This document shows, in pieces, positions 40,370 to 55,051 of a stretch of 64,000 nucleotides of DNA. This DNA is from an uncultured Gammaproteobacteria bacterium. GTDB taxonomy: Bacteria; Patescibacteriota; Patescibacteriia; UBA11705; JABHMO01. A program made the position numbers and the translations under genes. The stretch covers positions 157,640-221,639 of the forward strand of contig CAZAKN010000001.1 in the NCBI GenBank assembly GCA_964486065.1, given 5' to 3'. How positions within the stretch are numbered: the first letter of the stretch is position 1; every line of letters starts with the position of its first letter. The notes under the pieces are model-generated. The model made no database searches, was not told the DNA's origin, and worked only from the letters and a program-made list of their open reading frames with translations.

Positions 40370-41596
40370 CTAGCCCATCCCGCTTTCTCCCGTCAGTCGT
40401 GAAAATATTCTCATGAGTTTTTTATAATAAGTTTCAAAATCATTATCTTTTTCAATTTGCGCTCGGGCCGCGCGGCCCATTCTCTCAAGTTCACCTGACG
40501 GCAAATCATACATTTCTTTTATGCGTTTCGCCAAGTCCTGTTCATTGCCGGCTTGAAAAAATCTTCCGGTTTTATCCGGTGCCACAAGTTCTTTGGCTCC
40601 TCCCAATTTACTGGATAAAACCGGCTTACCCATGGCATAGGATTCCAAAATCACCATGGGATAGTTTTCATATGACTCGGAAGGAAAAACCGTAAAACGA
40701 GCTTTACTGATAATTTTTTGTAAATCTTTACCGTATTTGGCGCCGAGAAATTCTGTATTTTGCAATTTATATTTTCGCGCCAAGCGTTTAGCCTCCGTGG
40801 CCAGCGGACCTTTACCCACAATTTTAAGTGGTAGCTCGGGATTGGCTCGCATAGCTTTCAATAAAGTGAGAATGCCTTTATGACCGATCAAGCGACCGAT
40901 AAAAACAATGTCTTTACCTGCTTCATATCGGGGCACGAAATTTCGCAAATCAAGCGCGTTAGTAATCACTTCCACCGGCTGTTTAACTCCCCAATCTTGA
41001 ATTTTTCGCGCCAAAAATTTACTCGGTGAAATAAATAAATCAATTTTGCGACGATAATAACCGAAAAACCATTGCAAGTAAAGCTCTTTGGCGGCAAGAA
41101 TACTCGCCAAATACGAATCCTGTACGCATTTATTTAATATGCAATTGTAATATTTACGCTTTTTGCAACGCTCGCAAACCGCATTCTCGGTATAAAGCGA
41201 ATAATTCGGACAAATTATTTGATAATCATGCAAAGTTTGGATTACAGGAATTTTTCGCTTATTTAACGGCTTTAAGATTGAAGGAGACAGATAATGATGA
41301 ATATTGTGTAAATGCGCCACATCCGGCGAAAATTCTCGTAAAAGCGATTCCAATCTGCGCGCCGCTTCAGGATAATAAATATAGCGAAAACTTTTTCCCA
41401 ACCACCCGCTATGTTCTGAAAAATCCGTATTGGGAACAAAAAAAATATCTTGCTCGCAAGGCTCGTTCCTTAGATCTTCCATGGAAAAACATTGCACTTC
41501 ATGTCCCTTGCTTTCCAATAATTCCTTTTCTTGCAAATATACTCGCTCCGCACCTCCGCGCAAATAGTGAAATTTGTTGATCAGTAAAATTTTCAT
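40370..41596 (-). CDS. Glycosyltransferase family 1 (GT4)
   Basis: GT-B fold motifs, E.....E C-terminal motif. Confidence 0.7.
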   Translation of the reverse strand: MKILLINKFHYLRGGAERVYLQEKELLESKGHEVQCFSMEDLRNEPCEQDIFFVPNTDFSEHSGWLGKSFRYIYYPEAARRLESLLREFSPDVAHLHNIHHYLSPSILKPLNKRKIPVIQTLHDYQIICPNYSLYTENAVCERCKKRKYYNCILNKCVQDSYLASILAAKELYLQWFFGYYRRKIDLFISPSKFLARKIQDWGVKQPVEVITNALDLRNFVPRYEAGKDIVFIGRLIGHKGILTLLKAMRANPELPLKIVGKGPLATEAKRLARKYKLQNTEFLGAKYGKDLQKIISKARFTVFPSESYENYPMVILESYAMGKPVLSSKLGGAKELVAPDKTGRFFQAGNEQDLAKRIKEMYDLPSGELERMGRAARAQIEKDNDFETYYKKLMRIFSRLTGESGMG

Positions 41597-42667
41597 TTAT
41601 AAACTGTTATATAAATCTTGGTATTGTTTGACCGTTAAGTTAATATCAAATTTTTCTTTAACATCATTTTGCATTTGCGCGGCCAATTTCTTTGCTTCGC
41701 GCGGATTTTCAAAAACCCATTGCAAATGCGAAAAAAGCTGTTCTATATTCTTCGCCTTGAAAAGCAATCCGTTTTTTTTATCTTGAATTATTTCCGGAAC
41801 TCCTCCCACATTCGTGCCGATAACCAGACACCCGGCGGCGGAAGCTTCCAAAACGGCCAAACTGAGTCCTTCACTTTCCGAGGGTAAAACAAACACATCC
41901 CAAGTCGCCAAATATTTCTTCACATCATGAGTAGTCCCAATGAATTTCACATTTTCCTTCATGCCCAGACCAGACACTATACTTTCCAACTCTCCACGCA
42001 AAGGACCATCCCCCACCAATTGCAAACGCCAATCTTCTTTCGGCAAAAAACGGCAAGCTCGGATCAAATGTTTATGTCCTTTTTCTTTGCTCATTCTTCC
42101 CACATTGCCGATAATAAAAGGTTTATTTTTTAATATTTTCTTATCAGGATTGGCGAATTTTCGCGTATCAATGCCATTGTAAATCACTTCCACTTTTTCA
42201 AAATCCAAACCTTCATTATTTATCAAATGTTCGCGGATAACATTGGAAATGGCAATCACTTTATCCATTTTTTTACGCGAACGATTGCCGAGAAATGTCT
42301 TGGCGCGACCTTCGTTTAAAATGTCATGCCTCGTGCTGATAATTTTTTTCACCTCCGCGCGACGAGCCGCCCAAGCTCCCCAAAAATCAGCTGCGAACAA
42401 ATTGGTGTGAACAATATCCGGTTTTTCTTGTTTTAAATACAAAGTTAAACGATTCACCAACTCCACATCGGTTTTACCCGATTTATTGAAAGTTTTTACT
42501 TCAATACCGTATTCTTCAAAATCAGGCAATAAAAAATTATCATCATCTCGCATCACGCAAACACTGATTTTAAATTTTTGCTTGTCTATGCGCTTACAAA
42601 TATCCAGAAGCAATCTTTCCGCCCCCCCATAACCCAAGCCTCCTATCATGTAACAAATTTTTTTCAT
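41597..42667 (-). CDS. Glycosyltransferase family 1 (GT4)
   Basis: GGAERLL N-terminal motif, 356 aa. Confidence 0.7.
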   Translation of the reverse strand: MKKICYMIGGLGYGGAERLLLDICKRIDKQKFKISVCVMRDDDNFLLPDFEEYGIEVKTFNKSGKTDVELVNRLTLYLKQEKPDIVHTNLFAADFWGAWAARRAEVKKIISTRHDILNEGRAKTFLGNRSRKKMDKVIAISNVIREHLINNEGLDFEKVEVIYNGIDTRKFANPDKKILKNKPFIIGNVGRMSKEKGHKHLIRACRFLPKEDWRLQLVGDGPLRGELESIVSGLGMKENVKFIGTTHDVKKYLATWDVFVLPSESEGLSLAVLEASAAGCLVIGTNVGGVPEIIQDKKNGLLFKAKNIEQLFSHLQWVFENPREAKKLAAQMQNDVKEKFDINLTVKQYQDLYNSL

Positions 42668-42713
42668 ATATTTATTATCTTCACTTCCAACTTAATGAAA
42701 ATCGGTAATTAAA

Positions 42714-44150
42714 TCAAGATTTGGCATATCTTGGATCTTTTTTAACAAGTTCCGAGCCCACCAACATTAATCCGCAAGGTAGCCACATTTTGGCTATAAA
42801 ATATGAAGTGGAAAAAAGTTGCGCGAAAAACATTCCGCCGGCCATGAGAAACAATGCCAAAATCAACATTTGACCTTCGTGATTAACACTGAAAAACATT
42901 TTGCCCGTGCGATAAAACAACCATATAAAAAATATGACAAATGAAATAAATCCGAATAAGCCGGTTTCGGTTAAAAGTTTTTGGATAAAACCATGGGCAT
43001 CCAAGGGATCACCGTATTGAACCCAAAAAGCGAATGTTTCACCGATGATTTCTTGAAAAGTTCCCAATCCATGCCCGACAAATGGATGTTCTCCCCAAGC
43101 GGACAAAGTGATCATGGTCATCATCAAACGATTGGAAGTGGAAGTTTGCACTTCCTTTTCTTGCACCCAAACGGTAGAATAAAAAACTCCCATCGCCAAA
43201 ACAAGTAAAACCAAAACCGCGATTATTTCAAATTTTTTGAATTTGAATTTTATCAAATGATCTTTGTATAAAAATAAAGCCAAAGCTAAAACCTGTAAAC
43301 CCAAAACCAGCCAGCCCGTTCGCGAAAATGTCAACATAAGCACGATGCTCATAAACAAGATGGCCAATAAATACCAACCCTGATGCTTGATTTTCCTCGC
43401 CGTGAAAAATAAAAACAAAGCCGCCGGCACGGCAATTATCAAACTTTCCGCCACAGCGTTATGATTCCCCTCCAGCCAATTCAATCCGAAAATCGGCCAC
43501 GGCGTGGCTCTACGCATAAACCAACCTCCTTCACTGAAAAGAACGGTCAAAAATCCCAGCGTAGCTGACAATAGTCCACCCGCCAAAATCATCCAAAGAA
43601 TTTTTTTTAATTCCACTTTACTTTTTATGATATTGAACGGCAAAACCATAAACATGATGTAAGCGAAAACCAAAGGACGAAGAAAAAACTCAGCAGACAA
43701 CTGCCAGTGCGGAGTATTGATAAAAGATAAAGCCGATGCCACGAAAAAAATCAAGGCATAAGTCCAACCGGGCATGCGAGTTATGCTGGGCTCCTCCGGA
43801 GAGGGACGACAGACTGCGCCTTTAAGAAATTGACCGGTTAGCATGCGCATTAAAATTCCTGCAAGTAAAAGCAAAGCGAATAAATCAACATACGGGACAC
43901 TGAATCCGAAAGTTTCGGCTCTCAACCCCCAAAACGGCATAAAAAATGCCATTAAATAAAGTCCCAAAATCGGATAGACCGCAAACAATAAGGATATCAA
44001 CATGGCCACTTCAAAAAACAAAACATAAAGCCATGGAAAAAAATAACTGCCTATAAAACCGGCTATCACAAAAACAATTAAGAAAAAGCCACTCATTTTT
44101 TTCAAATCCTCAGCACTCAATTTAAATGTTTTATTATTCATATTGTACAA
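42714..44150 (-). CDS. O-antigen ligase/polymerase-like (Wzy_C family) polytopic membrane protein
   Basis: About 12 TM helices with large periplasmic loop, 478 aa. Confidence 0.55.
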   Translation of the reverse strand: MYNMNNKTFKLSAEDLKKMSGFFLIVFVIAGFIGSYFFPWLYVLFFEVAMLISLLFAVYPILGLYLMAFFMPFWGLRAETFGFSVPYVDLFALLLLAGILMRMLTGQFLKGAVCRPSPEEPSITRMPGWTYALIFFVASALSFINTPHWQLSAEFFLRPLVFAYIMFMVLPFNIIKSKVELKKILWMILAGGLLSATLGFLTVLFSEGGWFMRRATPWPIFGLNWLEGNHNAVAESLIIAVPAALFLFFTARKIKHQGWYLLAILFMSIVLMLTFSRTGWLVLGLQVLALALFLYKDHLIKFKFKKFEIIAVLVLLVLAMGVFYSTVWVQEKEVQTSTSNRLMMTMITLSAWGEHPFVGHGLGTFQEIIGETFAFWVQYGDPLDAHGFIQKLLTETGLFGFISFVIFFIWLFYRTGKMFFSVNHEGQMLILALFLMAGGMFFAQLFSTSYFIAKMWLPCGLMLVGSELVKKDPRYAKS

Positions 44151-44260: not shown

Positions 44261-44292
44261 AAAAAAGGCGGAAGCTGTTGCTTCCGCCTGAA
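44261..44292 (-). terminator. Terminator of the giant gene (ggcggaagc-tgtt-gcttccgcc, T-run on minus strand)
   Basis: 9-bp stem, A6 before on plus strand. Confidence 0.7.
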
Positions 44293-44310
44293 AGTTATAA
44301 AGAACGAAGT

Positions 44311-47300
44311 TTACAAATCAAGATCATTGCAGTCAAACCCGTCAATGGTAACCGCGGCCTTGGTTTGGAAACCTTCCTGAATGGAATAGGGCGTTCCTCC
44401 ACCCAGTTCCACATTGGTCACATTGGTGACCATGCCGTTGTTTTCCGGCCAGGCCAGCCAATCCGTCTCATTGTGGCAATTGTATTCCAGCCACGGGGTT
44501 TCGGTATCTTCATGGTTGCCCCAGACACAGACATCCCGCAAGGAGACAGTCTTAGTGCCGGAGACTTCCGGATCCGAATCCCAGATGTTATCGCCCGTAC
44601 CGAGCTTACCCCATACCAAGTACAAAGTATTGTCGACTGGACAAGTAAAGTGGACGGTCAAGCATCCTTCATCGGTGCGACCGTCGCAGTCATTATCTTC
44701 TCCATCGCAGACTTCCACACCGGGATTAACCGGCGAACAAGCATACTCGCAACCGTTGCGGGGATTTTCGTCAACATCGTAATATCCGCTATTGCAGACA
44801 TCGGGCTGACAACTCCCCTCCTGACACGAGTAGTTCGCGACATTGAGGTACTGCAGATAGGAACAGCTGTTGCCACAGGCGCCACAATGGTTACGGTCAG
44901 TTTGAAGATCAAAGCCTTCATCAACCTCACCGTTACAATCATTGTCCACACCGTCGCAAGCTTCGGTTCCGCCGTTGGTCATGCCACAGGGACCGTATTC
45001 ACAGCCATCCTCGTCATTTCCATTGGCGTCGTAGTAACCGCTGACGCAACTGTTCACCCGACACACACCGCTAACACAACCGGTGGCGGAAGTGTTTTGT
45101 AGCAAAGTGTTGCAGTCATTACCGCAACCGCCACAATTGGCTTCATCCGTGGACTTATTAAAGGTCTCGTCCACCTGACCGTCGCAGTCATCGTCCAAAT
45201 CATTGCAGACTTCCGAGGTCAACGGCATAACCGCGTCCTCACAATCTCCCCAAGTAAAGCCATCCAGACAAACTTGAGTACCAAACTCGCAAATGCCTTG
45301 CTCATTGGCGGGTCCGCAATCACGAACCGCTCCGGCCTGACAAATACAGCCTTCATCCGTCGTCCCGTCGCAATCGTTGTCCACGCCGTCGCAACTTTCC
45401 ACGACCGACATGTCTTCCGATCTTCCGGGCATGGTGGAGCAGGCGTAATCATTCAGACCATCGCACTCAATCACACCAGGTCCGGCGCAAGCACCAAGAC
45501 CGTAACAAAGCGCGCCAACGAAATAATCTTCGTCGGTTTGTCCGTCAAGGTCGTTGTCCTTACCATCGCATAGTTCGGATGCGCCCGGATAAACCGAACT
45601 GTCATTGTCGACCGTATCTCCTTCGCAAATCCGAACTCCATCTTCATCGGAGTCGTTTTCGTTCACGGGAACGGAACCGTCGCAGTCGTCATCCAAACCG
45701 TTGCACAGCTCAGTGGCTTCCGGCATGATCGCATCGAGGCAATCACCCCAGGACATACCGTCCGGCGAACAAGTCTGCGTTCCAAAAACGCAAATCCCTT
45801 GTTCATTGGCGGATCCACAATCGCGAGTTTCGCCGGCTACGCAGGTACAACCTTCGTTCACCGAGCCATCGCAATCATCGTCCAAACTGTTACCACAGCT
45901 TTCCACGCCGGACATATCTTCCGATCCGCCGGGCATGGTGGAACAACGATAGGTGTTGAAAGTAGCGCACTCAATAGTGCCAGCTCCGCAAACACCGATA
46001 CCGTTACAGCTGGCACCGATAAAGAAGTCTTCATCCACCATCCCGTCGCAATCGTTGTCTTGGCCATCGCAGAGTTCCGCGTTACCGGGGAAATTATCCG
46101 GATCCAAGTCATCGCAATCATTATCGCAAACCTTGATTCCGTCTTCATCCTCATCCGCTTCCTCCGCGGGGATAACACCGTCGCAGTCATCATCCAAACC
46201 GTTGCAAGATTCCGCTTCGGCCGGTTCAACCGCTCCGACGCATTCCAACCACGATTTGCCGTCTTCGGCGCAGGTTTCCAAGCCATACTCGCAAGCTCCG
46301 ACATCGGTCGTACCGCATTGGCGAGTGACGCCTGCCACACAAACACACTCGGCATCGTTGATATCAACTAAGCCGTCGCAGTCATCGTCCAATCTGTTAC
46401 CACAAACTTCTTCGGAAGAAGCATCCGCGGAGCCACCGGGCATGGTATCGCACATTACGGTCGTCGTGGTGGCGCATTCCAATACGCCGACACCGCAAGC
46501 ACCCACGCCTTGGCAGGCATTACCGACACCGAACGACTCGTCCACCTGCTCATCGCAGTTGTTATCCAGTCCATCGCAGATTTCAAGCGACAAGGGATTG
46601 ATGGTGGCTTCAGCGTCATTGCAGTCTCCCGCGCAAACGCGAACACCATCTTCATCCTCATCCGCTTCTTCCGCGGGAACGGAACCGTCGCAGTCGTCGT
46701 CCAAACCGTTACAAAGCTCGGATTCTTCCGGCATGACCGCTCCGACACATTCACCCCAACCGTCTCCGGCCGGATTACAGGTTTGCACTCCGAACTCGCA
46801 AATGCCTTGATCCGTTTCCGGACCGCATGCGCGAGTGGAAGCCGGACGACAATTGCAATCATCATCGTTCAAATCAACGAGTCCATCGCAGTCATCATCC
46901 ATACCGTTATCGCAAACTTCCGTGGCGGAAGCATCAGCCGAACCGCCGGGCATGGTATTGCATTGCACGGAATTATCCGTAGCGCATTCCAAAGTCCCCG
47001 GCGTATCACCGCAAGCTCCGATTCCCACGCAAGCCGAGCCGACGAAATATCCTTCGTCCACCTGCTCATCGCAGTTGTTATCAATCCCATCGCAGAGTTC
47101 AAGCGACAAGGGGTTGATGGTGGCTTCAGCGTCATTGCAGTCTCCCGCGCAAACGCGAACACCGTCTTCATCCTCATCCGCTTCCTCCACGGGAATAACA
47201 CCGTCGCAGTCATCATCCAAGCCATTGCAAGATTCCGCTTCGGCCGGTTCAACCGCTCCGACACATTCCAGCCACGATTTGCCGTCTTCGGCGCAGGTTT

Positions 47301-49146
47301 CCACGCCATATTGACACTCACCGACATTGGTCGTGCCACATTGGCGGGTCTGCCCGGGGAAGCAAATGCAACCGTTGTTGACTACACCGTCGCAATCGTC
47401 GTCCAATTCATTGCCACAATCTTCGGCAATGGATTCATCAGCCGAACCTCCCGGTTCAGTGGAGCAACGCGTTTCGGTTTCACCGGCGCATTCCACCACC
47501 CCGACGCCACAAGCGCCGAGACCTTCGCAAGGCTCGCCAATCCCGAATCCCTCGTCAATCTGATCGTCGCAGTTATTATCCACGCCGTCACAGATTTCCA
47601 AGACATCGGGGTTGATGGTCGCCAAAGCGTCATCGCAATCACCTTCACAGATGCGGAAACCGTCTTCGTCCTCATCCGCTTCGTTGGCCGGGATTTGATC
47701 ATCACAATTGTTATCCAGCCCGTCGCAGATTTCCTCCGCTTCCGGATGGATCAACTTGTTCAGATCATTGCATTCCTCGCAAGCCAGAAATCCGTCTTGA
47801 TCAAGGTCAACTTCCGTTTCCAGCTTTTCGCCGTCACAGTTATTGTCCTTGCCGTCGCAAATTTCTTCGGCTTCCGGGAAAACAGCCGGATCCTGATCAT
47901 CGCAGTCTCCCGCGCAATTCAGGATGCCGTCCTCGTCTTGATCAACTTCATCCTCCGGCACTTGGCCGTCGCAGTCGTCGTCAAGACCATTGCATTCCTC
48001 GGCTTCCAAAGCCTGGCTTTCGGAGCCACCGGGCATGGTGGAGCAAATGACTTGCTCGGCATTGTCGGGATCGCATTCGTAAACGCCTTCACCGCAAATA
48101 CCTTGACCGGTGCAAACCTCTCCGACTTCATAGTCTTCGTCGGTTTCACCGTCGCAATCATTGTCCTTACCGTCGCACAGTTCAGCTTCGGCGGGCATAA
48201 CCGCGCCTTCACACTCACCCCATTCCCAAGTTTGATCCTCGGTTTGGAGGCAAGTCTGAATACCGAATTCGCATTCCCCTTCTGCAGTCTCGGGACCGCA
48301 ACGCCGAATATCATTCGGCTGACAAGTGCACTCTTCCTCGTCGGTTTCACCGTCGCAATCATTGTCGCGATCGTCCTCGCAAATCTCCGTCGGATTATCA
48401 GGATCGTCCACATAGCAGACATCCTCACCTTCCGGATATTCGCATCCGTCTTCCGGATCCAGATTGGCATCATGCTTACCACTTTCACAAGCGGTAATCT
48501 CGCACAAGCCTTCTTCGCAAACAAATTCTGCGACTTGCAGACCATCAAACTCAGCCTGACAGCTGTAGCCACATTCTCCGCAGTTTTCCGGATCCTCGGC
48601 CAGATTAAACTCTTCGTCAATCTCGCCATCGCAATCATTGTCCACGCCGTCACAGGTTTCCGTCTCCGGATCCACATTGCCTATGCAATTGGTCCATTGA
48701 CCCTGTTCATCGCAAACACGAAACCCCATTTTGCAAGGGGAAGTGTTTTCCGCGTCGGCGGAACCGCATTCCTCTCGCTCTCCGGGCGAACACTGTCCAT
48801 CCGGAATCACTTCGTCTTCATCACCATCCACCAAGTCGGCATAATCAAGCCAACCATCGTAGAGACAGTAACTGCCTCTACAACTGAAACCGGGTTCGGA
48901 ATAAACATCCAATCCCGCTCTCAGGCAATCTTGATCGGTTTCGCAACCGGTCACGATACAAGTTCCTGACAAGCAAGACGCCTGACTGATGGTACAGTCC
49001 GACGGCGTATCGCACTTCTCCGGGAAATTGACGAGTCCGGATTGATCTCCGTCCTCATCCGCTTTTTTCCCGCCGTTGCCGTCATCACATCCGGCGCCAT
49101 ACAGCGCGAAAAGCGTGATGAAAAAAATGGCCATCAATTGCTTCAT
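44311..49146 (-). CDS. Giant secreted Cys-rich repeat lipoprotein (about 1611 aa). It has about 20 MopE-like putative metal-binding repeats C.G.DNDCDG..DE interleaved with Cys-knot-like modules, and a distinct C-terminal domain. True start is ATG at 49146 (track ORF starts at an upstream TTG)
   Basis: Lipobox LYGAGC. Recurring CDG[VLK]DNDCDG..DE and C.G.G.C.G..EC motifs. RBS aaggagagaatcATG. Confidence 0.75.
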   Translation of the reverse strand: MKQLMAIFFITLFALYGAGCDDGNGGKKADEDGDQSGLVNFPEKCDTPSDCTISQASCLSGTCIVTGCETDQDCLRAGLDVYSEPGFSCRGSYCLYDGWLDYADLVDGDEDEVIPDGQCSPGEREECGSADAENTSPCKMGFRVCDEQGQWTNCIGNVDPETETCDGVDNDCDGEIDEEFNLAEDPENCGECGYSCQAEFDGLQVAEFVCEEGLCEITACESGKHDANLDPEDGCEYPEGEDVCYVDDPDNPTEICEDDRDNDCDGETDEEECTCQPNDIRRCGPETAEGECEFGIQTCLQTEDQTWEWGECEGAVMPAEAELCDGKDNDCDGETDEDYEVGEVCTGQGICGEGVYECDPDNAEQVICSTMPGGSESQALEAEECNGLDDDCDGQVPEDEVDQDEDGILNCAGDCDDQDPAVFPEAEEICDGKDNNCDGEKLETEVDLDQDGFLACEECNDLNKLIHPEAEEICDGLDNNCDDQIPANEADEDEDGFRICEGDCDDALATINPDVLEICDGVDNNCDDQIDEGFGIGEPCEGLGACGVGVVECAGETETRCSTEPGGSADESIAEDCGNELDDDCDGVVNNGCICFPGQTRQCGTTNVGECQYGVETCAEDGKSWLECVGAVEPAEAESCNGLDDDCDGVIPVEEADEDEDGVRVCAGDCNDAEATINPLSLELCDGIDNNCDEQVDEGYFVGSACVGIGACGDTPGTLECATDNSVQCNTMPGGSADASATEVCDNGMDDDCDGLVDLNDDDCNCRPASTRACGPETDQGICEFGVQTCNPAGDGWGECVGAVMPEESELCNGLDDDCDGSVPAEEADEDEDGVRVCAGDCNDAEATINPLSLEICDGLDNNCDEQVDESFGVGNACQGVGACGVGVLECATTTTVMCDTMPGGSADASSEEVCGNRLDDDCDGLVDINDAECVCVAGVTRQCGTTDVGACEYGLETCAEDGKSWLECVGAVEPAEAESCNGLDDDCDGVIPAEEADEDEDGIKVCDNDCDDLDPDNFPGNAELCDGQDNDCDGMVDEDFFIGASCNGIGVCGAGTIECATFNTYRCSTMPGGSEDMSGVESCGNSLDDDCDGSVNEGCTCVAGETRDCGSANEQGICVFGTQTCSPDGMSWGDCLDAIMPEATELCNGLDDDCDGSVPVNENDSDEDGVRICEGDTVDNDSSVYPGASELCDGKDNDLDGQTDEDYFVGALCYGLGACAGPGVIECDGLNDYACSTMPGRSEDMSVVESCDGVDNDCDGTTDEGCICQAGAVRDCGPANEQGICEFGTQVCLDGFTWGDCEDAVMPLTSEVCNDLDDDCDGQVDETFNKSTDEANCGGCGNDCNTLLQNTSATGCVSGVCRVNSCVSGYYDANGNDEDGCEYGPCGMTNGGTEACDGVDNDCNGEVDEGFDLQTDRNHCGACGNSCSYLQYLNVANYSCQEGSCQPDVCNSGYYDVDENPRNGCEYACSPVNPGVEVCDGEDNDCDGRTDEGCLTVHFTCPVDNTLYLVWGKLGTGDNIWDSDPEVSGTKTVSLRDVCVWGNHEDTETPWLEYNCHNETDWLAWPENNGMVTNVTNVELGGGTPYSIQEGFQTKAAVTIDGFDCNDLDL
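45420..48050. repeat. About 510-bp near-identical tandem DNA repeats (about 5-6 copies) inside the giant gene. Each unit encodes ...MPGGS(A/E)D.S...DDDCDG...C.YG.ETC...
   Basis: Long identical nt stretches, for example 46601-46700 vs 47121-47220. The MPGGS-encoding segment recurs at about 45430, 45935, 46440, 46950, 47455 and 48040. Confidence 0.75.
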
Positions 49147-49164
49147 GATTCTCTCCTTTGTTGT

Positions 49165-49181
49165 CCCCAAAAATTTTGGGG
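49165..49181 (-). promoter_or_regulatory. 5'-UTR palindrome CCCCAAAAATTTTGGGG immediately upstream of the RBS of the giant gene
   Basis: Near-perfect inverted repeat. A homologous CCCCCTAAATTTTGGGGGG sits in the same position in gene 53823-54857. Confidence 0.55.
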
Positions 49182-49342
49182 AGATTTAGGAAAACAGTAA
49201 AAGTAAACAAATTGTCAAACTTCACAAACTCTCATTCAAGGGGTTTTACAAATGAACAAATACTTTATTCATTCATAAAAATCCTTGAAGATCATACCTG
49301 CAACTTACCACGATTACTAATAAAAATAAATATTAAGACACA

Positions 49343-49388
49343 ATTTGCAGACATTTAATTTTAGCAAAAATAAGAACTTTTGTCAAGT
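49343..49388 (-). promoter_or_regulatory. Candidate promoter of the giant gene (minus strand TTGACA-17-TAAAAT), giving an about 195-nt 5'-UTR
   Basis: Plus strand tgtcaa at 49383-49388 and atttta at 49360-49365. Confidence 0.45.
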
Positions 49389-49417
49389 GTTGTTATTTAC
49401 ACATTTTTAGCTAATTT

Positions 49418-49450
49418 TAAATAAAAATTCCCCGAGACTGATAGTCTCGG
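49418..49450 (-). terminator. Terminator of gene 49463-51400 (ttccccgagact-gat-agtctcggggaa)
   Basis: 12-bp stem, A-run before on plus strand. Confidence 0.7.
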
Positions 49451-49462
49451 GGAATGATGAGT

Positions 49463-51400
49463 TTAAGGGGTTGGTAATTTTACCCAAATCCCTCTGTCAA
49501 CGCGGGGGTCATCAACGATTTCCTCCGCATTGACCCGGTCTCCATTGTCTTTTCGGTAAAATACCTCCTGAACATGGAAACCCGTCCTCTGGAAGTTGAA
49601 ATGGCTGGAGAAGTGTACTTCAACATACACCACTCCCCCCGAAACATCCTCCAAGTTGAGAGGAATCTGGAAGCTTTTCCCATCTTCCATAATAGGAATA
49701 CCGTCATACATAACAGCATCCCCATCTTGGTTAAAATGGGAAATCACGCCCCTGAGCATTCCTTCCGGAAGACCATCAGGAATATCTCTCATGACAACTC
49801 CGATATTTCCCGAAAGAGGGAAATTATCGGCGACGGGTTGCTCCTCCTCTGAGGCACCATCGTCACCATCGGAATCATCACCATCCTCGTCGTCTTCCTG
49901 CTCGTCGCCATCTGAGATATCGCCATCTTCTTGATCAACCACTTGCTGACAAGTGGTTTCCTCAAAAGTGGCAACAAATCCCAATCCGTGAACATGGTTG
50001 ATGTTTTCCACATCCACGGAAAGAGGACATTCTTCATGAACGAACATTACCTCTTGCAACTGAACGGCTTGAGGATCTGACCAGTTCTCTTGGTCATACA
50101 GCGCGTCAAACCAAATTCTTTTTTGGATAACGCGGCTAAGATCCAGCGACAAAGAGACACATCCGTCTCCATCCAATGCCAACCGGACTTCCTGTTCTCC
50201 ATTGTCAGAAATATATCTGACGGAGACATTATTACAGGAGTGCGGTCCACAGTGGCTCCAAACGGCGCAAATCGTGAGCTCTCCAGCTCCACTTTCATAA
50301 ACATCCTGTTCATCGCCGTCGGTATCGCCATCTTCATCATCGCCGTCCGTGTCGTCGTCTTCATCATCGCCGTCGGTGTCACCATCGGTATCGCCATCCA
50401 TGTCACCGTCTTCATCATCGCCGTCGGTATCACCATCGGTATCGCCATCCATGTCGCCATCTTCATCATCGCCGTCTTCTTGAGGCCGTTCACCTTCCAA
50501 GCAAACGCCTTGGTCACACCAGTAACCATTCCGGCAATCAAAGTCATCCTGACAAGTGGCGAGACATTCACCTTCCTCGCAGACTTCGTTGTCCGCGCAT
50601 AGGGATTTGAACTCGCAGAGATTTCCTTCTCCGCACCTTGCCTCATAGCAAGTACCGAGTTCCATCCCTTCCGGGGGAGTCAAGCACTCGTGATCGTATG
50701 TGCAGGACTGCTTTCCGGCACAACGACCGGTGTGCAGATCGCAATACTGGCTGTTCAGACAAGACTCGGGGATTTCCTCCCCCGTCTCATCCGTACATGG
50801 CGCGTACTGCAAACATGCACCCTCATCTCCACAGTAGAAACCGTGGAGGCAGTCCTCATAACTTCCACATGCATTTGCCTCTTCGCAAATGTTTTCCCTA
50901 CGGTCACACTGCTCCGTCAAGAAACAGTCAGTGTGCTCGCCACAACGACCTTCTTGCCATTGCGTCACGCATTCTTCATGAATGCATACATATTCCTGAC
51001 CTTCCTGCTCAGGCTCACCACAGTCGGAGGCTTCCTCGCACTCCGGCTCATACACGACACAAGTACCCATATAGCAGTACTTGCCCTCGGCGCAATCACG
51101 ATTACTGCGACAAGTTTCGTCGCCATCCGTGATGTCGTCGCCATCCGTGTCGCCGTCGGTCGGCTCATCCCCATCGGAGATGTCGCCGTCCGTGTCGCCG
51201 TCGGTCGTGGAAATCTGCTCAGCGCAGAATCCCGCACTCGTGCAGTACTGCCACCGCGCGCAATCGGCGTCGGTTTCGCACTGCGTTTCTTTGGCGTCCG
51301 AGGATTCTTCTTCCTCGGCTTTTTTCTTGTCGCCACAACCGGCAACAAAACCCGCGAAAGCCACCATCAGCATAAGCGCAAAAATCAGGTTCTTCTTCAT
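49463..51400 (-). CDS. Secreted Cys-rich, acidic DGD-repeat lipoprotein (645 aa), paralog of 51596-53677. Conserved C-terminal YVEVH...DDPRVDRG domain
   Basis: Lipobox FVAGCGD, (DGDTDGDDEDGDM)x2, Cys-rich module, RBS aaggagacagagtaATG. Confidence 0.7.
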   Translation of the reverse strand: MKKNLIFALMLMVAFAGFVAGCGDKKKAEEEESSDAKETQCETDADCARWQYCTSAGFCAEQISTTDGDTDGDISDGDEPTDGDTDGDDITDGDETCRSNRDCAEGKYCYMGTCVVYEPECEEASDCGEPEQEGQEYVCIHEECVTQWQEGRCGEHTDCFLTEQCDRRENICEEANACGSYEDCLHGFYCGDEGACLQYAPCTDETGEEIPESCLNSQYCDLHTGRCAGKQSCTYDHECLTPPEGMELGTCYEARCGEGNLCEFKSLCADNEVCEEGECLATCQDDFDCRNGYWCDQGVCLEGERPQEDGDDEDGDMDGDTDGDTDGDDEDGDMDGDTDGDTDGDDEDDDTDGDDEDGDTDGDEQDVYESGAGELTICAVWSHCGPHSCNNVSVRYISDNGEQEVRLALDGDGCVSLSLDLSRVIQKRIWFDALYDQENWSDPQAVQLQEVMFVHEECPLSVDVENINHVHGLGFVATFEETTCQQVVDQEDGDISDGDEQEDDEDGDDSDGDDGASEEEQPVADNFPLSGNIGVVMRDIPDGLPEGMLRGVISHFNQDGDAVMYDGIPIMEDGKSFQIPLNLEDVSGGVVYVEVHFSSHFNFQRTGFHVQEVFYRKDNGDRVNAEEIVDDPRVDRGIWVKLPTP

Positions 51401-51480
51401 TACTCTGTCTCCTTGCGGGCAACCATGCCCGCTGCTGTTAAGGTTTTTCCGAAATGAAATTTCTGAAAGAACGATATATT

Positions 51481-51509
51481 ATTCTATCAAATTTTGGCAT
51501 TTTTGTCAA
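51481..51509 (-). promoter_or_regulatory. Consensus-like promoter (minus strand TTGACA-17-TAGAAT) for gene 49463-51400
   Basis: Plus strand attcta...17 nt...tgtcaa. Confidence 0.55.
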
Positions 51510-51555
51510 TAGTACTTAGCAAAATTAGTGCATTTGGAAATTTTTGCCTAAATTT

Positions 51556-51580
51556 AAACAAAAACCCGTGCGTTTTACGC
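51556..51580 (-). terminator. Terminator of gene 51596-53677 (cccgtgcg-tttta-cgcacggg)
   Basis: 8-bp stem with flanking A/T runs. Confidence 0.7.
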
Positions 51581-51595
51581 ACGGGTTTGAATTAT

Positions 51596-53677
51596 CTAAT
51601 CAAACTCGCAATAGTCCCCTCTATCAACACGATCATCCAAGATCACTTCAGCTTGAATAGTTTCTCCATTCTGCAAGCCATAAATGACCTTAATCGGAGC
51701 TATGCCCGAAGGATTGAAGTTCCAATTTGGAGTGGAGTGTATTTGCACATACACCACACTGCTTAACGCTTGCTCCAAATCCAAATCATGTGAAAAACAC
51801 TTACCGTTGATCGGGATATTGTCATGAATGACAGAATGACCATCCATGTCAAAGTAAGAAAAATATCCCTTCCATCCTTCTTCGTTAATCGGATAACACG
51901 CGATAAGCGTATTCGGAGGAGCGCTCATGGGAAGGTGCTGATCTTCATCGCCGTCTTCAGCGATATCTTCGTCGCCATCCGGCTCCACAGGCTCATGGCA
52001 AGTGAAATCTTCAAACTCCAGAACATAGCCCCATTCGTCCCAAGAATACCGGACATCTTCCGGCGGAACGACAATAACGCAGTCTTCCATACGATATTCA
52101 GCCGACACGATGGTCGGTTTGGGCCAAATCCAGTTGTTCCCCGTATGCGCGTCAAATCTGAAACGCGCATTCCACACATCATCCAAATCCACTTGATGAG
52201 CAAAACAATTTCCTTGTGTCGGAATATCCAACTCCTGTAGCCCCCCCTCATACAAAGTATAAATCAAGGAAACTTGTTCATATTGCGAAAACCTTTCAGA
52301 GGCACAAACACGCAAAACACCATCTTCCCAATCATCGTCTTCAACGAGATCTTCGTCACCATCAACGGTGATATCCTCATCTCCATCTTCAGCGATATCT
52401 TCGTCGCCATCCGGTTCCGGCTCAGGCAAACACTCGCCTTCCTCGCAACCGTAATAGCATGGTTGACTCTCAACCCAACATACACCTTCGACACAATTAG
52501 GCATGTGATGAACCAACATAGCCTCTTGTGAACCGTCGGAGGATGGGACACAGATCCAACTCTCAATGCAGTCCTGATCCGACATGCATTCTGGTTGCGA
52601 ATTGCAAGCTCCGTTGGAGCAACCGAACTCACAAATTTCTATTAGAATGTTGCAGTAATGATCCTCTTGAACACAGACACCGGACGGGTATACCCGAACA
52701 TTTCCTGTCAAACACTCGGCAGGCAAATTTGTTTCCGAGCAATCGTTGTCGGTTTCACAATAATGCCAATCCGCACGATCAGCCCTTACACACCGACCGT
52801 CCTGACAGACATCACCGGTTGACGGATCACCGTCCACACAATCCACATCTATCTCGCACTCGTTGCCGGGAACGCATTCACCATTCTCGCAAATCTCACC
52901 GTCATCACAGTGGTTACGATATTCACAAACAAGATCAGCACAACGATAATCATAACAAGTACCGTAATCCAATCCTTCCGGCAACTCGCTACAATCATTA
53001 TCACTTTCACAAGCGGAAAGTTTTTCGCAACGACCGGTTTCCTGATTACAATATTGCCCGTTAAAGCAGGCTTCCGCGATTTCCACTCCGTCTTCATTAA
53101 CACAAACATTGTATTGTTTGCATTGATTGACTTCCTGGTCGCAAAAATAACCCTCTCTGCAATCAAGATTTTCCTCGCACTCTCGGGCCGATTCGCAAAA
53201 TCCTTGGCGGTTGCATTCTTCGTACGGGAGGCAATCCACATTATTGTGGCATTCACCCGAACCTTCCATGCATTGGCAATCAACGCAATTCAAGTCTTCT
53301 CTGCAATCCTCCGCGGAGCGGCACTCACATTCAGTGCAACGACTCGCGATACAAAGCTCTCCTGTTTTGCATTGGAAATCATAGCGACAATACCCTTGAC
53401 GATTGCTCGGTTCGGGGTCATCACCGTCTTCCACTTGTTCGTCACCATCAGGGCTGATTTCCGCGTCCAGATCACCGTCCACTTGTTCACTCTCCGTCTC
53501 CGGTACGCAGAAACCATCCGCGCAAAAGAATCCATCATCACATTGCTCATCGGACGAGCAGAGACTGATGGTGAACTCTTCGTCACCATCCAAGATTTCA
53601 CTTTTTTTTCCATCCTCACCGCAACCGGCGAAATAGATGGCAAAAAGCAACAGGACAACAAACTTAAACTGTTTCAT
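51596..53677 (-). CDS. Secreted Cys-rich, acidic repeat lipoprotein (693 aa), paralog of 49463-51400. It carries a duplicated EPDGDEDIAEDGDED segment and the same C-terminal domain
   Basis: Lipobox FAGCGEDG, collinear Cys pattern with the previous gene, C-terminal YVQIH..DDRVDRG. Confidence 0.7.
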   Translation of the reverse strand: MKQFKFVVLLLFAIYFAGCGEDGKKSEILDGDEEFTISLCSSDEQCDDGFFCADGFCVPETESEQVDGDLDAEISPDGDEQVEDGDDPEPSNRQGYCRYDFQCKTGELCIASRCTECECRSAEDCREDLNCVDCQCMEGSGECHNNVDCLPYEECNRQGFCESARECEENLDCREGYFCDQEVNQCKQYNVCVNEDGVEIAEACFNGQYCNQETGRCEKLSACESDNDCSELPEGLDYGTCYDYRCADLVCEYRNHCDDGEICENGECVPGNECEIDVDCVDGDPSTGDVCQDGRCVRADRADWHYCETDNDCSETNLPAECLTGNVRVYPSGVCVQEDHYCNILIEICEFGCSNGACNSQPECMSDQDCIESWICVPSSDGSQEAMLVHHMPNCVEGVCWVESQPCYYGCEEGECLPEPEPDGDEDIAEDGDEDITVDGDEDLVEDDDWEDGVLRVCASERFSQYEQVSLIYTLYEGGLQELDIPTQGNCFAHQVDLDDVWNARFRFDAHTGNNWIWPKPTIVSAEYRMEDCVIVVPPEDVRYSWDEWGYVLEFEDFTCHEPVEPDGDEDIAEDGDEDQHLPMSAPPNTLIACYPINEEGWKGYFSYFDMDGHSVIHDNIPINGKCFSHDLDLEQALSSVVYVQIHSTPNWNFNPSGIAPIKVIYGLQNGETIQAEVILDDRVDRGDYCEFD

Positions 53678-53794
53678 GATATTCTCCTTTTTTTTGATTG
53701 TTTAAAGGAACAAACTAACATTATACTGTAACAAATTTTTAATCTTTTGGCAAGTGCCAAAGGTGATTAATTAAAACACAATAATTAAAAAACC

Positions 53795-53821: not shown

Positions 53822-53822
53822 T

Positions 53823-54857: not shown

Positions 54858-54876
54858 TATTCTCTCCTTTGTTTGT

Positions 54877-55043: not shown

Positions 55044-55051
55044 TTTTTTTG

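What the first reader, a model, noticed from the sequence alone, without database searches (positions are those of the whole stretch)
44311..49146. Giant (about 1611 aa) lipoprotein built from about 20 MopE-like C.G.DNDCDG..DE repeats with a distinct C-terminal domain
The CDG.DNDCDG..DE motif recurs with striking regularity, alternating with C.G.G.C..G..EC knots. The motif corresponds to the putative metal-binding motif known from MopE and myxobacterial surface proteins. The last about 200 aa (LTVHFTCPVDN...CNDLDL) are unrelated to the repeats and may be an anchoring or recognition domain. In size it is the largest gene in the window, and it is the first gene of the cluster.
Basis: partly seen in the sequence, partly recalled or inferred. 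Interest (0 to 1): 0.7.

Follow-up and report, generated by a model that had tools for sequence, protein, structure and literature searches.

The report
Giant calcium-type repeat surface lipoprotein
This is a real 1611-residue, very acidic and cysteine-rich surface lipoprotein of a tiny uncultured (Falkowbacteria-like) bacterium, built from 23 copies of a known "MopE" motif that more probably binds calcium than copper; it is a new member of a large, functionally untested family.

Summary
Window 44311..49146 (- strand) is one uninterrupted 1611-aa ORF with a signal peptide and a lipobox-like Cys20. It has 10% Cys and 25% Asp+Glu. Pfam PF11617 scores 382.6 bits (17 stretches); a regex finds 23 motif copies.

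- The repeats are four module types, with a ~170-aa three-module unit repeated five times.
- The non-repeat C-terminus is 116 aa, not about 200.
- The gene is monocistronic and is the last, not first, of six lipoprotein genes.

Nearest relatives (43-44% identity, collinear neighbours) are Candidatus Falkowbacteria (Patescibacteria/CPR).

The "copper" label is weak. The part of MopE that PF11617 matches is invisible in the MopE crystal, and MopE's Cu site lies elsewhere. This protein has only 6 His. The core D-[ND]-[DN]-C-D-G-x-x-D is a DxDxDG-type loop and aligns with the teneurin C-rich domain (hhalign 81.5%), which is crystallographically a Ca2+ site.

The C-terminal domain is a predicted beta-sandwich with no Pfam family. 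It belongs to a rare family (21 clusters in 1.84 billion proteins), and all named members are Falkowbacteria/Parcubacteria. The same domain ends M23- and C39-like peptidases.

Most likely this is a lipid-anchored, Ca2+- and disulfide-stiffened stalk carrying a binding module. It is a new member of a known kind; interest is moderate.

The parts
49358..49386 (-). Sigma-70-type promoter TTGACA-17-TAAAAT with TG extension (11 of 12 matches)
   Evidence: The layout is shared with four of the other lipoprotein genes.
49427..49455 (-). Intrinsic terminator of the upstream lipoprotein gene (13-bp stem plus T run), which separates that gene from the giant gene
49147..49357 (-). 5' leader of about 200 nt. 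It contains the hairpin CCCCAAAATTTTTGGGG (49181-49165) and the RBS AAAGGAGAG (49159-49151).
   Evidence: Sequence read. The hairpin plus RBS block is shared with the leader of gene 53823-54857. There is no Rfam family.
49087..49146 (-). Signal peptide with a lipobox-like end: MKQLMAIFFITLFALYGAG|C (aa 1-20, Cys20)
   Evidence: Translation. 13 of 15 relatives and all five upstream paralogues have a Cys in the same setting.
48655..49086 (-). N-terminal part (aa 21-164): acidic tether, an 8-Cys module, an acidic linker and one D-type module. No Pfam match.
48379..48654 (-). First MopE motif plus a type A module (CGxCG...C..G.C....C..G..D.....DGCEY), aa 165-256
47995..48378 (-). One D-type and one C-type module, each following a MopE motif (aa 257-384)
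45208..47994 (-). Five super-repeats (aa 385-1313). SR0 is B-B-B-C-D. SR1 to SR4 are B-C-D units of about 170 aa, 49-70% identical to each other. Every module begins with a MopE motif. B modules add a second DxDxDG loop (DEDEDG).
   Evidence: AF2 model of aa 742-933 has pLDDT 82.9.
44710..45207 (-). Two more type A (CPL1-like) modules, aa 1314-1479
   Evidence: PF21671 scores 26.4 bits against a cut-off of 27.4.
44662..44709 (-). Last (23rd) MopE motif, aa 1480-1495
44314..44661 (-). C-terminal non-repeat domain, aa 1496-1611. It is a predicted 8-strand beta-sandwich and a divergent member of a rare C-terminal domain family whose named members are all Falkowbacteria/Parcubacteria.
44266..44289 (-). 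Intrinsic terminator of the giant gene (10-bp stem plus T run)

Best explanation
The gene encodes a cell-surface lipoprotein of a Falkowbacteria-like Patescibacteria (CPR) bacterium.

Shown:
- An intact, independently transcribed ORF.
- A signal peptide ending in a lipobox-like Cys.
- 23 PF11617 motifs with fixed Cys/Asp spacing, arranged as four module types with five ~170-aa super-repeats.
- 160 cysteines after the lipid-attachment Cys.
- A 116-aa C-terminal beta-sandwich belonging to a rare family that always sits at the extreme C-terminus.
- Conserved position beside Wzy_C and two GT4 glycosyltransferase genes.

Inferred mechanism:
- After Sec export and lipidation, Cys20 tethers the protein to the outer face of the cell membrane.
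- The 160 remaining cysteines form about 80 disulfides.
- Each D-[ND]-[DN]-C-D-G-x-x-D loop, plus the 7 extra DxDxDG loops in B modules, chelates Ca2+ rather than Cu. The chemistry would be that of thrombospondin type-3 repeats, LDL-receptor A modules and the teneurin C-rich domain.
- This turns about 1330 residues with almost no regular secondary structure into a stiff, protease-resistant, polyanionic stalk.
- The stalk holds the C-terminal beta-sandwich away from the membrane.
- That domain is a binding module for a wall or surface ligand, either the cell's own wall polymer or a host cell. The reason is that the same domain ends secreted M23- and C39/papain-like peptidases in the same lineage.
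For: Gene and family:
- ORF and composition.
- PF11617 at 382.6 bits.
- Motif regularity.
- ORF intact in three assemblies with no Cys altered.

Surface lipoprotein:
- Lipobox-like Cys in this protein, in 13/15 relatives and in all five neighbouring paralogues.
- Cys count after the lipid Cys is even (160), and even in 10/13 relatives.
- Only this gene, the five paralogues and ORF 9037-10323 reach the pI floor (~4.05); ordinary genes in the window are pI 4.7-10. The acidity is therefore specific to these proteins, not a proteome trait.

Calcium rather than copper:
- MopE's motif-bearing N-terminus is disordered or absent in the crystal, and its Cu site is His/His/kynurenine elsewhere: PMC3423442.
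- The PDB match covers only residues 5-44 of 2vov_A.
- There are only 6 His and 20 Met.
- There are 25 DxDxDG-type matches, against about 0.9 that I estimated by hand from residue frequencies.
- The motif profile aligns with the teneurin C-rich profile at hhalign probability 81.5%, P=1.1e-5. It places [DN]-3, D0, N+1, D+2, D+4 and D+8 on Ten4 D840, D843, N844, D845, D847 and D851.
- Those residues coordinate Ca2+ in a 1.5 A crystal structure: PMC9058538.

Folded stalk:
- AF2 model of one super-repeat has pLDDT 82.9, above 90 for residues 30-130, with almost no helix or strand.

C-terminal domain:
- A profile built without the query hits it at E=4.5e-13.
- AF2 model has pLDDT 79 and pTM 0.74 and is an 8-strand sandwich.
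- The family has 21 clusters in 1.84e9 proteins and is always C-terminal.
- It is present on Peptidase_C39_2 and M23-like proteins.
- All named members are Falkowbacteria/Parcubacteria.
- The peptidase versions lie near ftsW, murD and mraY.

Lineage and context:
- Collinear orthologues at 36-61% identity in Falkowbacteria contigs.
- Large Cys-rich extracellular proteins proposed for attachment have been described in CPR Peribacteria: PMC4736985.
Against: - No metal was measured, and the Ca2+ assignment rests on motif analogy.
- Pfam's own model does not hit the teneurin 23-mers. Their scores against the motif HMM are modest: 3.8-10.2 bits, while the best of 1000 shuffles reached 13.4.
- The lipobox deviates from the PROSITE rule at position -4 (Tyr).
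- This copy of the C-terminal domain lacks the family's conserved VDPxGEGE segment and several cysteines, so its ligand may differ or be lost.
- No disulfide-forming enzyme was seen among the Pfam-scanned ORFs of the window.
- There are no expression or localisation data.
Confidence: 0.55

Rival explanations
1. Copper or other transition-metal binding protein, as the Pfam name 'Cu-binding_MopE' and the first reader suggest. The 23 motifs would capture Cu for uptake or detoxification at the cell surface.
For: - PF11617 hit.
- MopE* lacking its first 24 residues no longer binds a Cu(II)-IMAC column, so the motif-containing N-terminus may contribute weak Cu(II) sites (PMC3423442).
Against: - The high-affinity Cu(I) site of MopE is His132/His203/kynurenine130, outside the motif, and the motif region is not seen in the crystal.
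- Only residues 5-44 of MopE match.
- This protein has 6 His in 1611 aa and no Met- or His-rich tracts.
- The cysteines are most likely disulfide-bonded (even count).
- All-oxygen Asp/Asn/Glu ligands favour Ca2+ (PMC9058538).
- No copper-related genes were seen among the window ORFs scanned against Pfam.
Confidence: 0.08
2. Structural envelope component tethered at both ends. The N-terminal lipid sits in the membrane and the C-terminal domain binds the cell's own wall polymer, made by the adjacent Wzy_C/GT4 genes. The protein would then be part of a surface layer or spacer rather than an adhesin for other cells.
For: - Conserved synteny giant gene - Wzy_C - GT4 - GT4 in three genomes.
- The C-terminal domain is shared with M23- and C39-like peptidases encoded near ftsW, murD and mraY, which suggests own-wall targeting.
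- Six co-located, separately and strongly promoted lipoprotein genes look like abundant coat proteins.
Against: - Each gene is a separate transcription unit, so linkage to Wzy/GT4 is positional only.
- A stalk with about 1330 residues of repeats is far longer than needed to span a wall.
- The query's C-terminal domain has lost conserved family motifs.
- No binding data exist.
Confidence: 0.25
3. Polyanionic cation sink or mineral-nucleating surface protein. The net charge is roughly -365. The protein would buffer or concentrate Ca2+/Mg2+ (or Fe/Mn) at the surface, with no specific binding partner.
For: - 25.4% Asp+Glu against 2.7% Lys+Arg.
- The five neighbouring paralogues carry DGDEPE-type acidic linkers and also sit at the pI floor (~4.05).
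Against: - Strictly conserved Cys/Asp spacing and module order across orthologues at 43-55% identity, together with a conserved terminal domain, point to a defined architecture rather than bulk charge.
- Strain variants change no Cys.
Confidence: 0.07
4. The C-terminal beta-sandwich is a sorting or secretion signal, analogous to the type IX secretion C-terminal domain, and not a ligand-binding module.
For: It is always at the extreme C-terminus of otherwise unrelated secreted proteins: giant repeat proteins, M23-like and C39-like peptidases.
Against: - No Pfam sorting-domain hit.
- The organisms are Patescibacteria, which from general knowledge are thought to lack an outer membrane, and no type IX secretion genes were seen among the window ORFs scanned.
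- The proteins already carry Sec/lipoprotein signals.
Confidence: 0.05

Closest known systems
PF11617 'putative metal-binding motif' / 'MopE-related' repeat proteins of Myxococcota, Planctomycetota, Bacteroidota and Patescibacteria
   Same: - Same motif, 382.6 bits.
- Same module vocabulary, including CPL1-like CGxCG modules and the DxDxDG-CxGDCDD-PGAxE-CDGxDNDCDG unit.
- Thousands of relatives: 5511 of 8000 scored candidates at E<=1e-5.
- Several relatives are named 'MopE-related protein' by NCBI.
   Different: - It comes from a small-genome CPR bacterium.
- It has a lipoprotein N-terminus instead of MYXO-CTERM or other anchors.
- It has no enzymatic partner domains (FGE-sulfatase, FG-GAP, P_proprotein, VWA) of the kind seen in many relatives.
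- It ends in a rare beta-sandwich domain that has no Pfam family.
MopE / CorA copper-binding proteins of methanotrophs (PDB 2VOV, 2VOW, 2VOX)
   Same: One B-type unit (LDRDGDG....DCND....HPGA.E..DGVDSNCDG) at the N-terminus of secreted MopE* matches residues 446-484 of this protein.
   Different: - The Cu(I)-binding beta-domain with its His/His/kynurenine site has no counterpart here.
- The matching MopE segment is not even ordered in the crystal.
- There is no methanotrophy context.
Teneurin C-rich domain (PDB 7PLP; human teneurin-4 residues 834-871)
   Same: - Same core D-x-x-D-N-D-x-D-G-x-x-D preceded by a Cys.
- hhalign probability 81.5% over 15 columns.
- In teneurin these residues bind Ca2+ in thrombospondin-type-3-like and LDLR-A-like geometry.
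   Different: - Teneurin has a single copy with six Cys (1-3, 2-5, 4-6) and a DPDCC tail.
- Here each motif has two Cys, the tail is absent, there is a one-residue indel after the first Cys, and the motif is repeated 23 times.
- Pfam PF11617 does not hit the teneurin 23-mers.
Large cysteine-rich extracellular proteins of CPR Peribacteria (Anantharaman et al. 2016, PMC4736985)
   Same: - CPR lineage.
- Clustered genes.
- Proteins of about 1655 aa with about 7% Cys and signal peptides.
- Weak similarity to myxobacterial Cys-rich repeats.
- Proposed attachment role.
   Different: - Different CPR lineage.
- Homology between the two sets was not tested here.
- The present protein has a clear PF11617 assignment and a defined C-terminal domain.
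Ca2+-rigidified giant adhesins (SiiE, MpIBP and other RTX adhesins)
   Same: - Working principle: a long array of small Ca2+-binding modules forms a stiff stalk that presents terminal binding domains.
   Different: - There is no sequence or fold homology of the stalk modules: BIg beta-sandwiches there, disulfide knots here.
- They are secreted by type I secretion in diderm bacteria, whereas this protein is Sec-exported and lipid-anchored.

Membership tests
PF11617 (Cu-binding_MopE / putative metal-binding motif) repeat proteins | Profile HMM score above Pfam's gathering cut-off | tested here: met
   382.6 bits against a cut-off of 27, E=3.5e-117, 17 stretches. Single modules score 36-53 bits.
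PF11617 (Cu-binding_MopE / putative metal-binding motif) repeat proteins | Conserved C-x3-D-[ND]-[DN]-C-D-G spacing in repeated copies | tested here: met
   23 copies. Asp at position 0 in 23/23, Cys at +3 in 22/23, Asp at +4 in 22/23 and Gly at +5 in 19/23.
MopE/CorA copper(I)-binding proteins | Homologous beta-domain carrying the His-His-kynurenine Cu(I) site | tested here: not met
   The PDB sequence search matches only residues 5-44 of 2vov_A (E=0.0096). The rest of MopE is unmatched. Only 6 His are present.
MopE/CorA copper(I)-binding proteins | Copper binding demonstrated | not testable with these tools
   Needs ICP-MS or ITC on purified protein.
Teneurin C-rich Ca2+-binding domain | Acidic ligand pattern D840/D843/N844/D845/D847/D851 | tested here: met
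   hhalign A3 against A6 gives probability 81.5%, P=1.1e-5, and aligns these positions. Ten4 sequence confirmed from 7PLP. Ligand list from PMC9058538.
Teneurin C-rich Ca2+-binding domain | Six-cysteine 1-3/2-5/4-6 framework with the D854/D856 'DPDCC' tail (third Ca2+ site) | tested here: not met
   The motif has only two Cys and no DPDCC tail. Pfam PF11617 does not hit the teneurin 23-mers.
Thrombospondin type-3 / bacterial TSP3 repeat (PF18884) | Profile HMM hit | tested here: not met
   No TSP3_bac hit in the giant protein at E<=0.01 or in single modules at E<=10. DxDxDG loops are nevertheless present.
LDL-receptor class A / EGF-like modules | Profile HMM hit | tested here: not met
   No such Pfam family was reported for the whole protein or for isolated C and D modules.
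CPL1-like module (PF21671) | Profile HMM score above the gathering cut-off | tested here: inconclusive
   The type A module (aa 1314-1400) scores 26.4 bits against a cut-off of 27.4, E=7.2e-6. Relatives such as P0010 pass the cut-off.
Bacterial lipoproteins (signal peptidase II substrates) | Signal peptide ending in a lipobox [LVI..][ASTVI][GAS]-C | tested here: inconclusive
   The N-terminus is MKQLMAIFFITLFALYGAG|C. Positions -1 to -3 fit, but Tyr at -4 falls outside the PROSITE PS51257 set (rule recalled from memory). 13/15 relatives and all five paralogues have lipobox-like Cys. Lipidation itself was not testable.
Type IX secretion C-terminal sorting domains | Pfam/TIGRFAM CTD profile hit on the C-terminal domain | tested here: not met
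   No Pfam family for the C-terminal 116 aa or for the Falkowbacteria version. No NCBIfam hit on the whole protein.
C-terminal beta-sandwich family of Falkowbacteria/Parcubacteria (undescribed) | Significant match to a profile built from other members, located at the extreme C-terminus | tested here: met
   E=4.5e-13 against a 12-member profile that excludes the query. E=1.4e-4 against a 5-member profile. However, the conserved VDPxGEGE segment and several Cys are missing in this copy.

The most novel reading that the evidence does not exclude
The rare C-terminal beta-sandwich, whose named members are all Falkowbacteria/Parcubacteria, is a new wall- or host-surface-targeting module. It would be shared by a giant Ca2+-stiffened stalk lipoprotein and by secreted M23 and papain-like wall hydrolases. 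Together they would form the attachment-and-wall-remodelling toolkit by which these episymbiotic CPR cells hold on to, or feed from, a host. On this reading PF11617 arrays are a bacterial counterpart of eukaryotic thrombospondin/LDLR/teneurin Ca2+ modules.
Probability: 0.2. Interest if true: 0.65.

Novelty: new member of a known kind. Interest (0 to 1): 0.35.

Why it matters
How ultra-small CPR/Patescibacteria cells attach to partners is largely unknown, and their genomes spend a large share of coding capacity on large Cys-rich surface proteins of unknown function. This locus offers three things.

- It gives a well-defined example: a conserved position, a clear module grammar and an expressible ~170-aa unit.
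- It gives a concrete, cheap test of calcium against copper for a Pfam family whose name rests on a segment that was never seen in the MopE crystal structure.
- It identifies a small C-terminal domain that links the stalk protein to wall hydrolases in the same lineage.

If the calcium reading is right, the family name 'Cu-binding_MopE' misleads the annotation of thousands of proteins.

Tried and rejected
- **Low-complexity artefact or frameshifted ORF.** Rejected. Cys/Asp spacing is fixed, AF2 confidence is high, and three assemblies keep the frame with no Cys changed.
- **Long antisense ORFs inside the gene** (for example 46510-48969 +, 819 aa). Treated as shadow ORFs of the repeat composition.
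- **PDB profile search with the 26-column motif alignment.** No hits even at E<=10.
- **NCBIfam.** No family for the giant protein or its paralogues.
- **The search for homologous proteins with the C-terminal alignment.** No hit. The exhaustive HMMER search did find the family.
- **The look-up of encoding contigs for the exact protein.** Not on record.
- **Locating the source genome.** An exact 50-mer was not found among GTDB species representatives. The peptide-pattern scan returned only distant Myxococcota, Bacteroidota and Woesearchaeota repeat proteins. The taxonomic call therefore rests on best hits and synteny.
- **Regex tabulation of correlated Cys loss to infer disulfide partners.** It mis-registered and was abandoned. 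Only one anecdote remains: SR4 has lost both the 'GDC' Cys and the next motif's 'DNDC' Cys while the total stays even.
- **Riboswitch or RNA element in the 200-nt leader.** No Rfam match of note.
- **C-terminal domains of the five upstream paralogues.** Not significantly related to the giant protein's C-terminal family (E 0.09-1.8).
- **Recent horizontal transfer as the cause of the GC-rich island.** Disfavoured, because the same GC3 contrast exists in the two Falkowbacteria relatives.
Full report
**1. The observation**

Window 44311..49146 on the minus strand is a single open reading frame. The ORF listing extends it to a TTG at 49170 (1619 aa). The ATG at 49146 is preceded by the RBS AAAGGAGAG and gives 1611 aa. 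There is no internal stop.

Composition is extreme:
- Cys 161 (10.0%)
- Asp 14.5%, Gly 12.4%, Glu 10.9%
- Lys+Arg 2.7%
- His 6 residues

The protein is the largest in the window; the next largest is 918 aa. The identical sequence exists in the public protein collection (P0001, NCBI, 232-kb contig). Two independently assembled close variants also exist: P0121 (1611 aa, 17 substitutions) and P0122 (N-terminally truncated call, 49 substitutions). None of these differences touches a cysteine or shifts the frame.

**2. Repeat anatomy**

Pfam PF11617 (Cu-binding_MopE, 'putative metal-binding motif') scores 382.6 bits against a cut-off of 27, in 17 stretches. A regex finds 23 copies. Their consensus is P-x3-E-x-C-[DN]-G-x-D-[ND]-[DN]-C-D-G-x-[VIT]-[DP]-E. 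Asp at position 0 is present in 23/23 copies, Cys at +3 in 22/23 and Asp at +4 in 22/23.

Each motif opens one of four module types:
- A: 83-92 aa, CGxCG...DGCEY, three copies. It scores 26.4 bits on PF21671 CPL1-like, just under the 27.4 cut-off.
- B: 45 aa, with a second DxDxDG loop such as DEDEDG followed by CxGDC[DN]D...P...E. This is the unit present once in MopE.
- C: 59-61 aa, CxGxGxC...EC...PGGS, six copies.
- D: 62-66 aa, CxC..G..RxCG...GxC..G..TC...W..C, six copies.

Residues 385-1313 are five super-repeats. SR0 is B-B-B-C-D. SR1 to SR4 are B-C-D units of about 170 aa, 49-70% identical at the protein level and 57-73% at the DNA level. These are old, diverged duplications.

The non-repeat C-terminus starts at Leu1496 and is 116 aa, not about 200.

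**3. Transcription and neighbours**

The gene is on the minus strand, like every other substantial ORF in the window.

Upstream of it, at higher coordinates, lie five paralogous lipoprotein genes: 49463-51400, 51596-53677, 53823-54857, 55052-56035 and 56203-57072. They are acidic, 3.8-8.9% Cys, carry DGDEPE-type linkers and have no Pfam family.

Nearly every intergenic gap contains a strong hairpin terminator. Five of the six upstream regions share a conserved TTGACAAAA...TTTGnTAnAAT promoter layout. For the giant gene the elements are:
- terminator of the upstream gene at 49455-49427
- promoter at 49386-49358 (11 of 12 matches, TG-extended)
- a leader of about 200 nt
- its own terminator at 44289-44266

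It is therefore monocistronic and is the last, not the first, of the lipoprotein series.

Downstream follow Wzy_C (O-antigen-ligase family), two GT4 glycosyltransferases and hrcA-grpE-dnaK-dnaJ.

**4. Origin**

The best homologues with the same architecture are from Candidatus Falkowbacteria:
- P0003, 2202 aa, 44% identity, from GCA_018703365.1
- P0005, 1851 aa
- P0019, named 'MopE-related protein [Candidatus Falkowbacteria bacterium]'

Their loci are collinear with the window. The shared order is DUF5656, HtrA-like, Wzz-like, Cys-rich lipoproteins, giant protein, (radical SAM), Wzy_C, (methyltransferase), GT4, GT4..., HrcA. Flanking proteins are 36-61% identical.

The source genome itself is not among GTDB species representatives. 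I therefore assign the window to a Falkowbacteria-like Patescibacteria (CPR) bacterium by inference from best hits and synteny.

More distant PF11617 arrays are very numerous: 5511 of 8000 scored candidates reach E<=1e-5. They are mostly in Myxococcota, with some in Bacteroidota, Planctomycetota and others.

**5. Which metal?**

The family name comes from MopE. The only solved-structure match of this protein is to residues 5-44 of MopE* (2vov_A, E=0.0096).

According to the MopE literature:
- The first 46 residues of MopE* are not visible in the electron density.
- The high-affinity Cu(I) site is His132/His203/kynurenine130, elsewhere in the protein.
- Only a weak Cu(II)-IMAC effect maps to the first 24 residues (PMC3423442).

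The motif's copper label thus has no structural basis. The present protein has almost no His.

The motif is itself a DxDxDG-type loop. There are 25 such matches: 18 within MopE motifs and 7 in B modules. I estimated by hand from residue frequencies that about 0.9 would be expected.

Tucker et al. aligned PF11617 with the teneurin cysteine-rich region (PMC3278476). That region was later crystallised at 1.5 A (7PLP). It binds three Ca2+ through E835, D840, D843, N844, D845, D847, D851, D854 and D856, in thrombospondin-type-3-like and LDLR-A-like geometry (PMC9058538; sequence confirmed).

A profile of the 23 motifs aligns with a teneurin profile at hhalign probability 81.5% (P=1.1e-5, 15 columns). 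It superposes [DN]-3, D0, N+1, D+2, D+4 and D+8 on D840, D843, N844, D845, D847 and D851.

The support is real but limited:
- Teneurin 23-mers score 3.8-10.2 bits against the motif HMM. The 95th percentile of composition-matched shuffles is 0.8 bits and the maximum is 13.4 bits.
- Pfam's model does not hit the teneurin 23-mers.
- The cysteine framework differs.

I conclude, as an inference, that Ca2+ is the likely ligand and that Cu is unlikely.

**6. Disulfides and fold**

After the lipobox Cys there are exactly 160 cysteines. The count is even in 10 of 13 relatives with a recognisable lipobox. This is consistent with complete disulfide pairing.

In SR4 the B-module 'GDC' Cys and the next motif's 'DNDC' Cys are both replaced (GDT, DNDL). 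This is a hint that they pair.

An AlphaFold2 model of one D-B-C unit (aa 742-933, 28-sequence alignment) has mean pLDDT 82.9, above 90 for residues 30-130, with almost no helix or strand. It is a confidently predicted knotted, secondary-structure-poor chain.

**7. The C-terminal domain**

It has no Pfam family. It is a divergent member of a C-terminal domain present in 16 of the top 120 homologues. A 12-member profile that excludes the query hits it at E=4.5e-13. This copy lacks the family's VDPxGEGE segment and several cysteines.

An exhaustive HMMER search of 1.84 billion cluster representatives finds only 21 members at E<=1e-3, in every case at the extreme C-terminus.

All members that carry names are Falkowbacteria or Parcubacteria. 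Besides giant repeat proteins, the domain terminates the following:
- Peptidase_C39_2 proteins (P0138, 63 bits)
- papain-like proteins (P0139)
- Peptidase_M23-like proteins (P0136, P0141, P0143)

Some of these have a single MopE motif just before the domain. Two of these peptidase genes (P0138 and P0143) were looked up. Both sit next to rpmA (L27) and a second C39_2 gene, and the P0143 locus also lies near ftsW, murD and mraY.

Sharing one terminal module between wall-hydrolase-type enzymes and surface proteins is the pattern of wall- or surface-targeting domains in monoderm bacteria, such as SLH, CWB2 and LysM. That comparison comes from established knowledge and was not tested here. It fits a ligand-binding role better than a membrane anchor.

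**8. Most likely mechanism**

Shown:
- a real gene with its own strong promoter
- PF11617 membership
- the module grammar
- conserved synteny
- membership of the C-terminal family

Inferred:
- Sec export and lipidation at Cys20
- about 80 disulfides
- Ca2+ chelation at about 23-30 loops, which stiffens a polyanionic stalk
- a distal beta-sandwich that binds a wall or surface ligand, either the cell's own or a host's

This matches the earlier description of clustered, large, Cys-rich extracellular proteins in CPR Peribacteria, which were proposed to mediate attachment (PMC4736985).

Rivals:
- a both-ends-tethered envelope component tied to the adjacent Wzy_C/GT4 polymer (0.25)
- copper or transition-metal binding (0.08)
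- a non-specific cation sink (0.07)
- a C-terminal sorting signal (0.05)

**9. Comparison and novelty**

The protein is a member of the PF11617 repeat family, where all tested features are met. It is not a MopE/CorA-type copper protein, because the defining Cu domain is absent. It resembles the teneurin C-rich, TSP-3 and LDLR-A calcium sites in ligand pattern but fails their framework or profile tests. The working analogy is to Ca2+-rigidified giant adhesins.

It is therefore a new member of a known but functionally uncharacterised kind. The mildly new elements are the lineage (CPR), the lipoprotein anchoring, the rare C-terminal domain that is shared with peptidases, and the argument that the family's copper name is probably wrong.

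Interest is moderate (0.35). A specialist in CPR surface biology would find it useful rather than surprising.

**10. Side observations**

The six lipoprotein genes form a GC-rich island. Their GC3 is 0.45-0.63, against 0.32-0.46 in ordinary genes. Synonymous codon choice is clearly shifted: GAC 44% against 21%, AAC 47% against 12%, GTC 30% against 9%. The same contrast is seen in the two Falkowbacteria relatives. It is thus a conserved property of these genes rather than a recent transfer, and I have no explanation for it.

Noticed in passing
window 49463-57129 (- strand): Five paralogous lipoprotein genes lie upstream: 49463-51400, 51596-53677, 53823-54857, 55052-56035 and 56203-57072. They are very acidic (pI at the ~4.05 floor) and 3.8-8.9% Cys, carry DGDEPE-type linkers and have no Pfam or NCBIfam family. 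Two N-terminal types and two C-terminal domain types are shuffled among them. Falkowbacteria relatives carry analogous 779-997-aa Cys-rich lipoproteins at the same position.
   Followed up: partly
window 44311-57129; L001 6750-16609; L002 6279-15556: The Cys-rich lipoprotein genes form a GC-rich, codon-usage island. GC3 is 0.45-0.63 against 0.32-0.46 in housekeeping genes, with far more C-ending Asp, Asn, Val and Cys codons. The same contrast exists in two Falkowbacteria relatives (GC3 0.40-0.79 against 0.23-0.35), so it is a conserved property and not a recent transfer. Unexplained.
   Followed up: partly
window 49165-49181 and the leader of gene 53823-54857 (about 54858-54900): A conserved hairpin CCCC(A/T)AAATTTT(T)GGGG sits immediately upstream of the RBS AAAGGAGAGAAT in two of the six lipoprotein leaders. 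It has no Rfam match. It could be an mRNA-stabilising or translational element.
   Followed up: partly
window 49147-49462, 51401-51595, 53678-53822, 54858-55051, 56036-56202: Five of the six lipoprotein intergenic regions share one layout: a strong hairpin terminator, an AT-rich spacer, and a near-consensus TTGACAAAA-N-TTTGnTAnAAT extended -10 promoter. Each gene is therefore its own, probably strongly expressed, transcription unit.
   Followed up: yes
P0136, P0138, P0139, P0141, P0143; loci L041 4287-6254, L042 10001-11839: The C-terminal beta-sandwich of the giant protein also ends Peptidase_C39_2, papain-like and Peptidase_M23-like secreted proteins of Falkowbacteria/Parcubacteria. Two of these genes (P0138, P0143) were looked up. 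Both lie next to rpmA and a second C39_2 gene, and the P0143 locus (L042) is also near ftsW, murD and mraY. The family has only 21 clusters in 1.84 billion proteins.
   Followed up: partly
window 40370-44150 (- strand): Wzy_C (O-antigen ligase / O-oligosaccharyltransferase family) and two GT4 glycosyltransferases lie directly downstream of the giant gene. This arrangement is conserved in Falkowbacteria. The relatives additionally have a radical-SAM gene and a methyltransferase inserted, both absent here. This may indicate synthesis of a wall polymer or protein glycosylation linked to the surface proteins.
   Followed up: partly
window 9037-10323 (- strand): A further very acidic (pI at the ~4.05 floor) 428-aa ORF with a bacterial TSP3 repeat (Ca2+-type DxDxDG) and PKD domains. 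It is another probable Ca2+-binding surface protein and is not Cys-rich.
   Followed up: no
window 57846-58550 and 58838-60616 (- strand): Two unannotated ORFs sit between the Wzz-like gene and the lipoprotein series. One is a 222-aa protein with a single membrane helix, a coiled stretch and a Cys cluster. The other is a ~570-aa acidic protein with several CxxC zinc-ribbon-like pairs and a C-terminal membrane helix.
   Followed up: no
window 44278-48969 (+ strand): Long antisense ORFs lie inside the giant gene, for example 46510-48969 (819 aa) and 45953-46810 (285 aa). They are shadow ORFs produced by the biased repeat composition, not genes.
   Followed up: yes
window 1-64000: Every substantial ORF is on the minus strand and GC skew is negative throughout. 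No tRNA gene and no Rfam family reaching its gathering score is present in 64 kb.
   Followed up: yes
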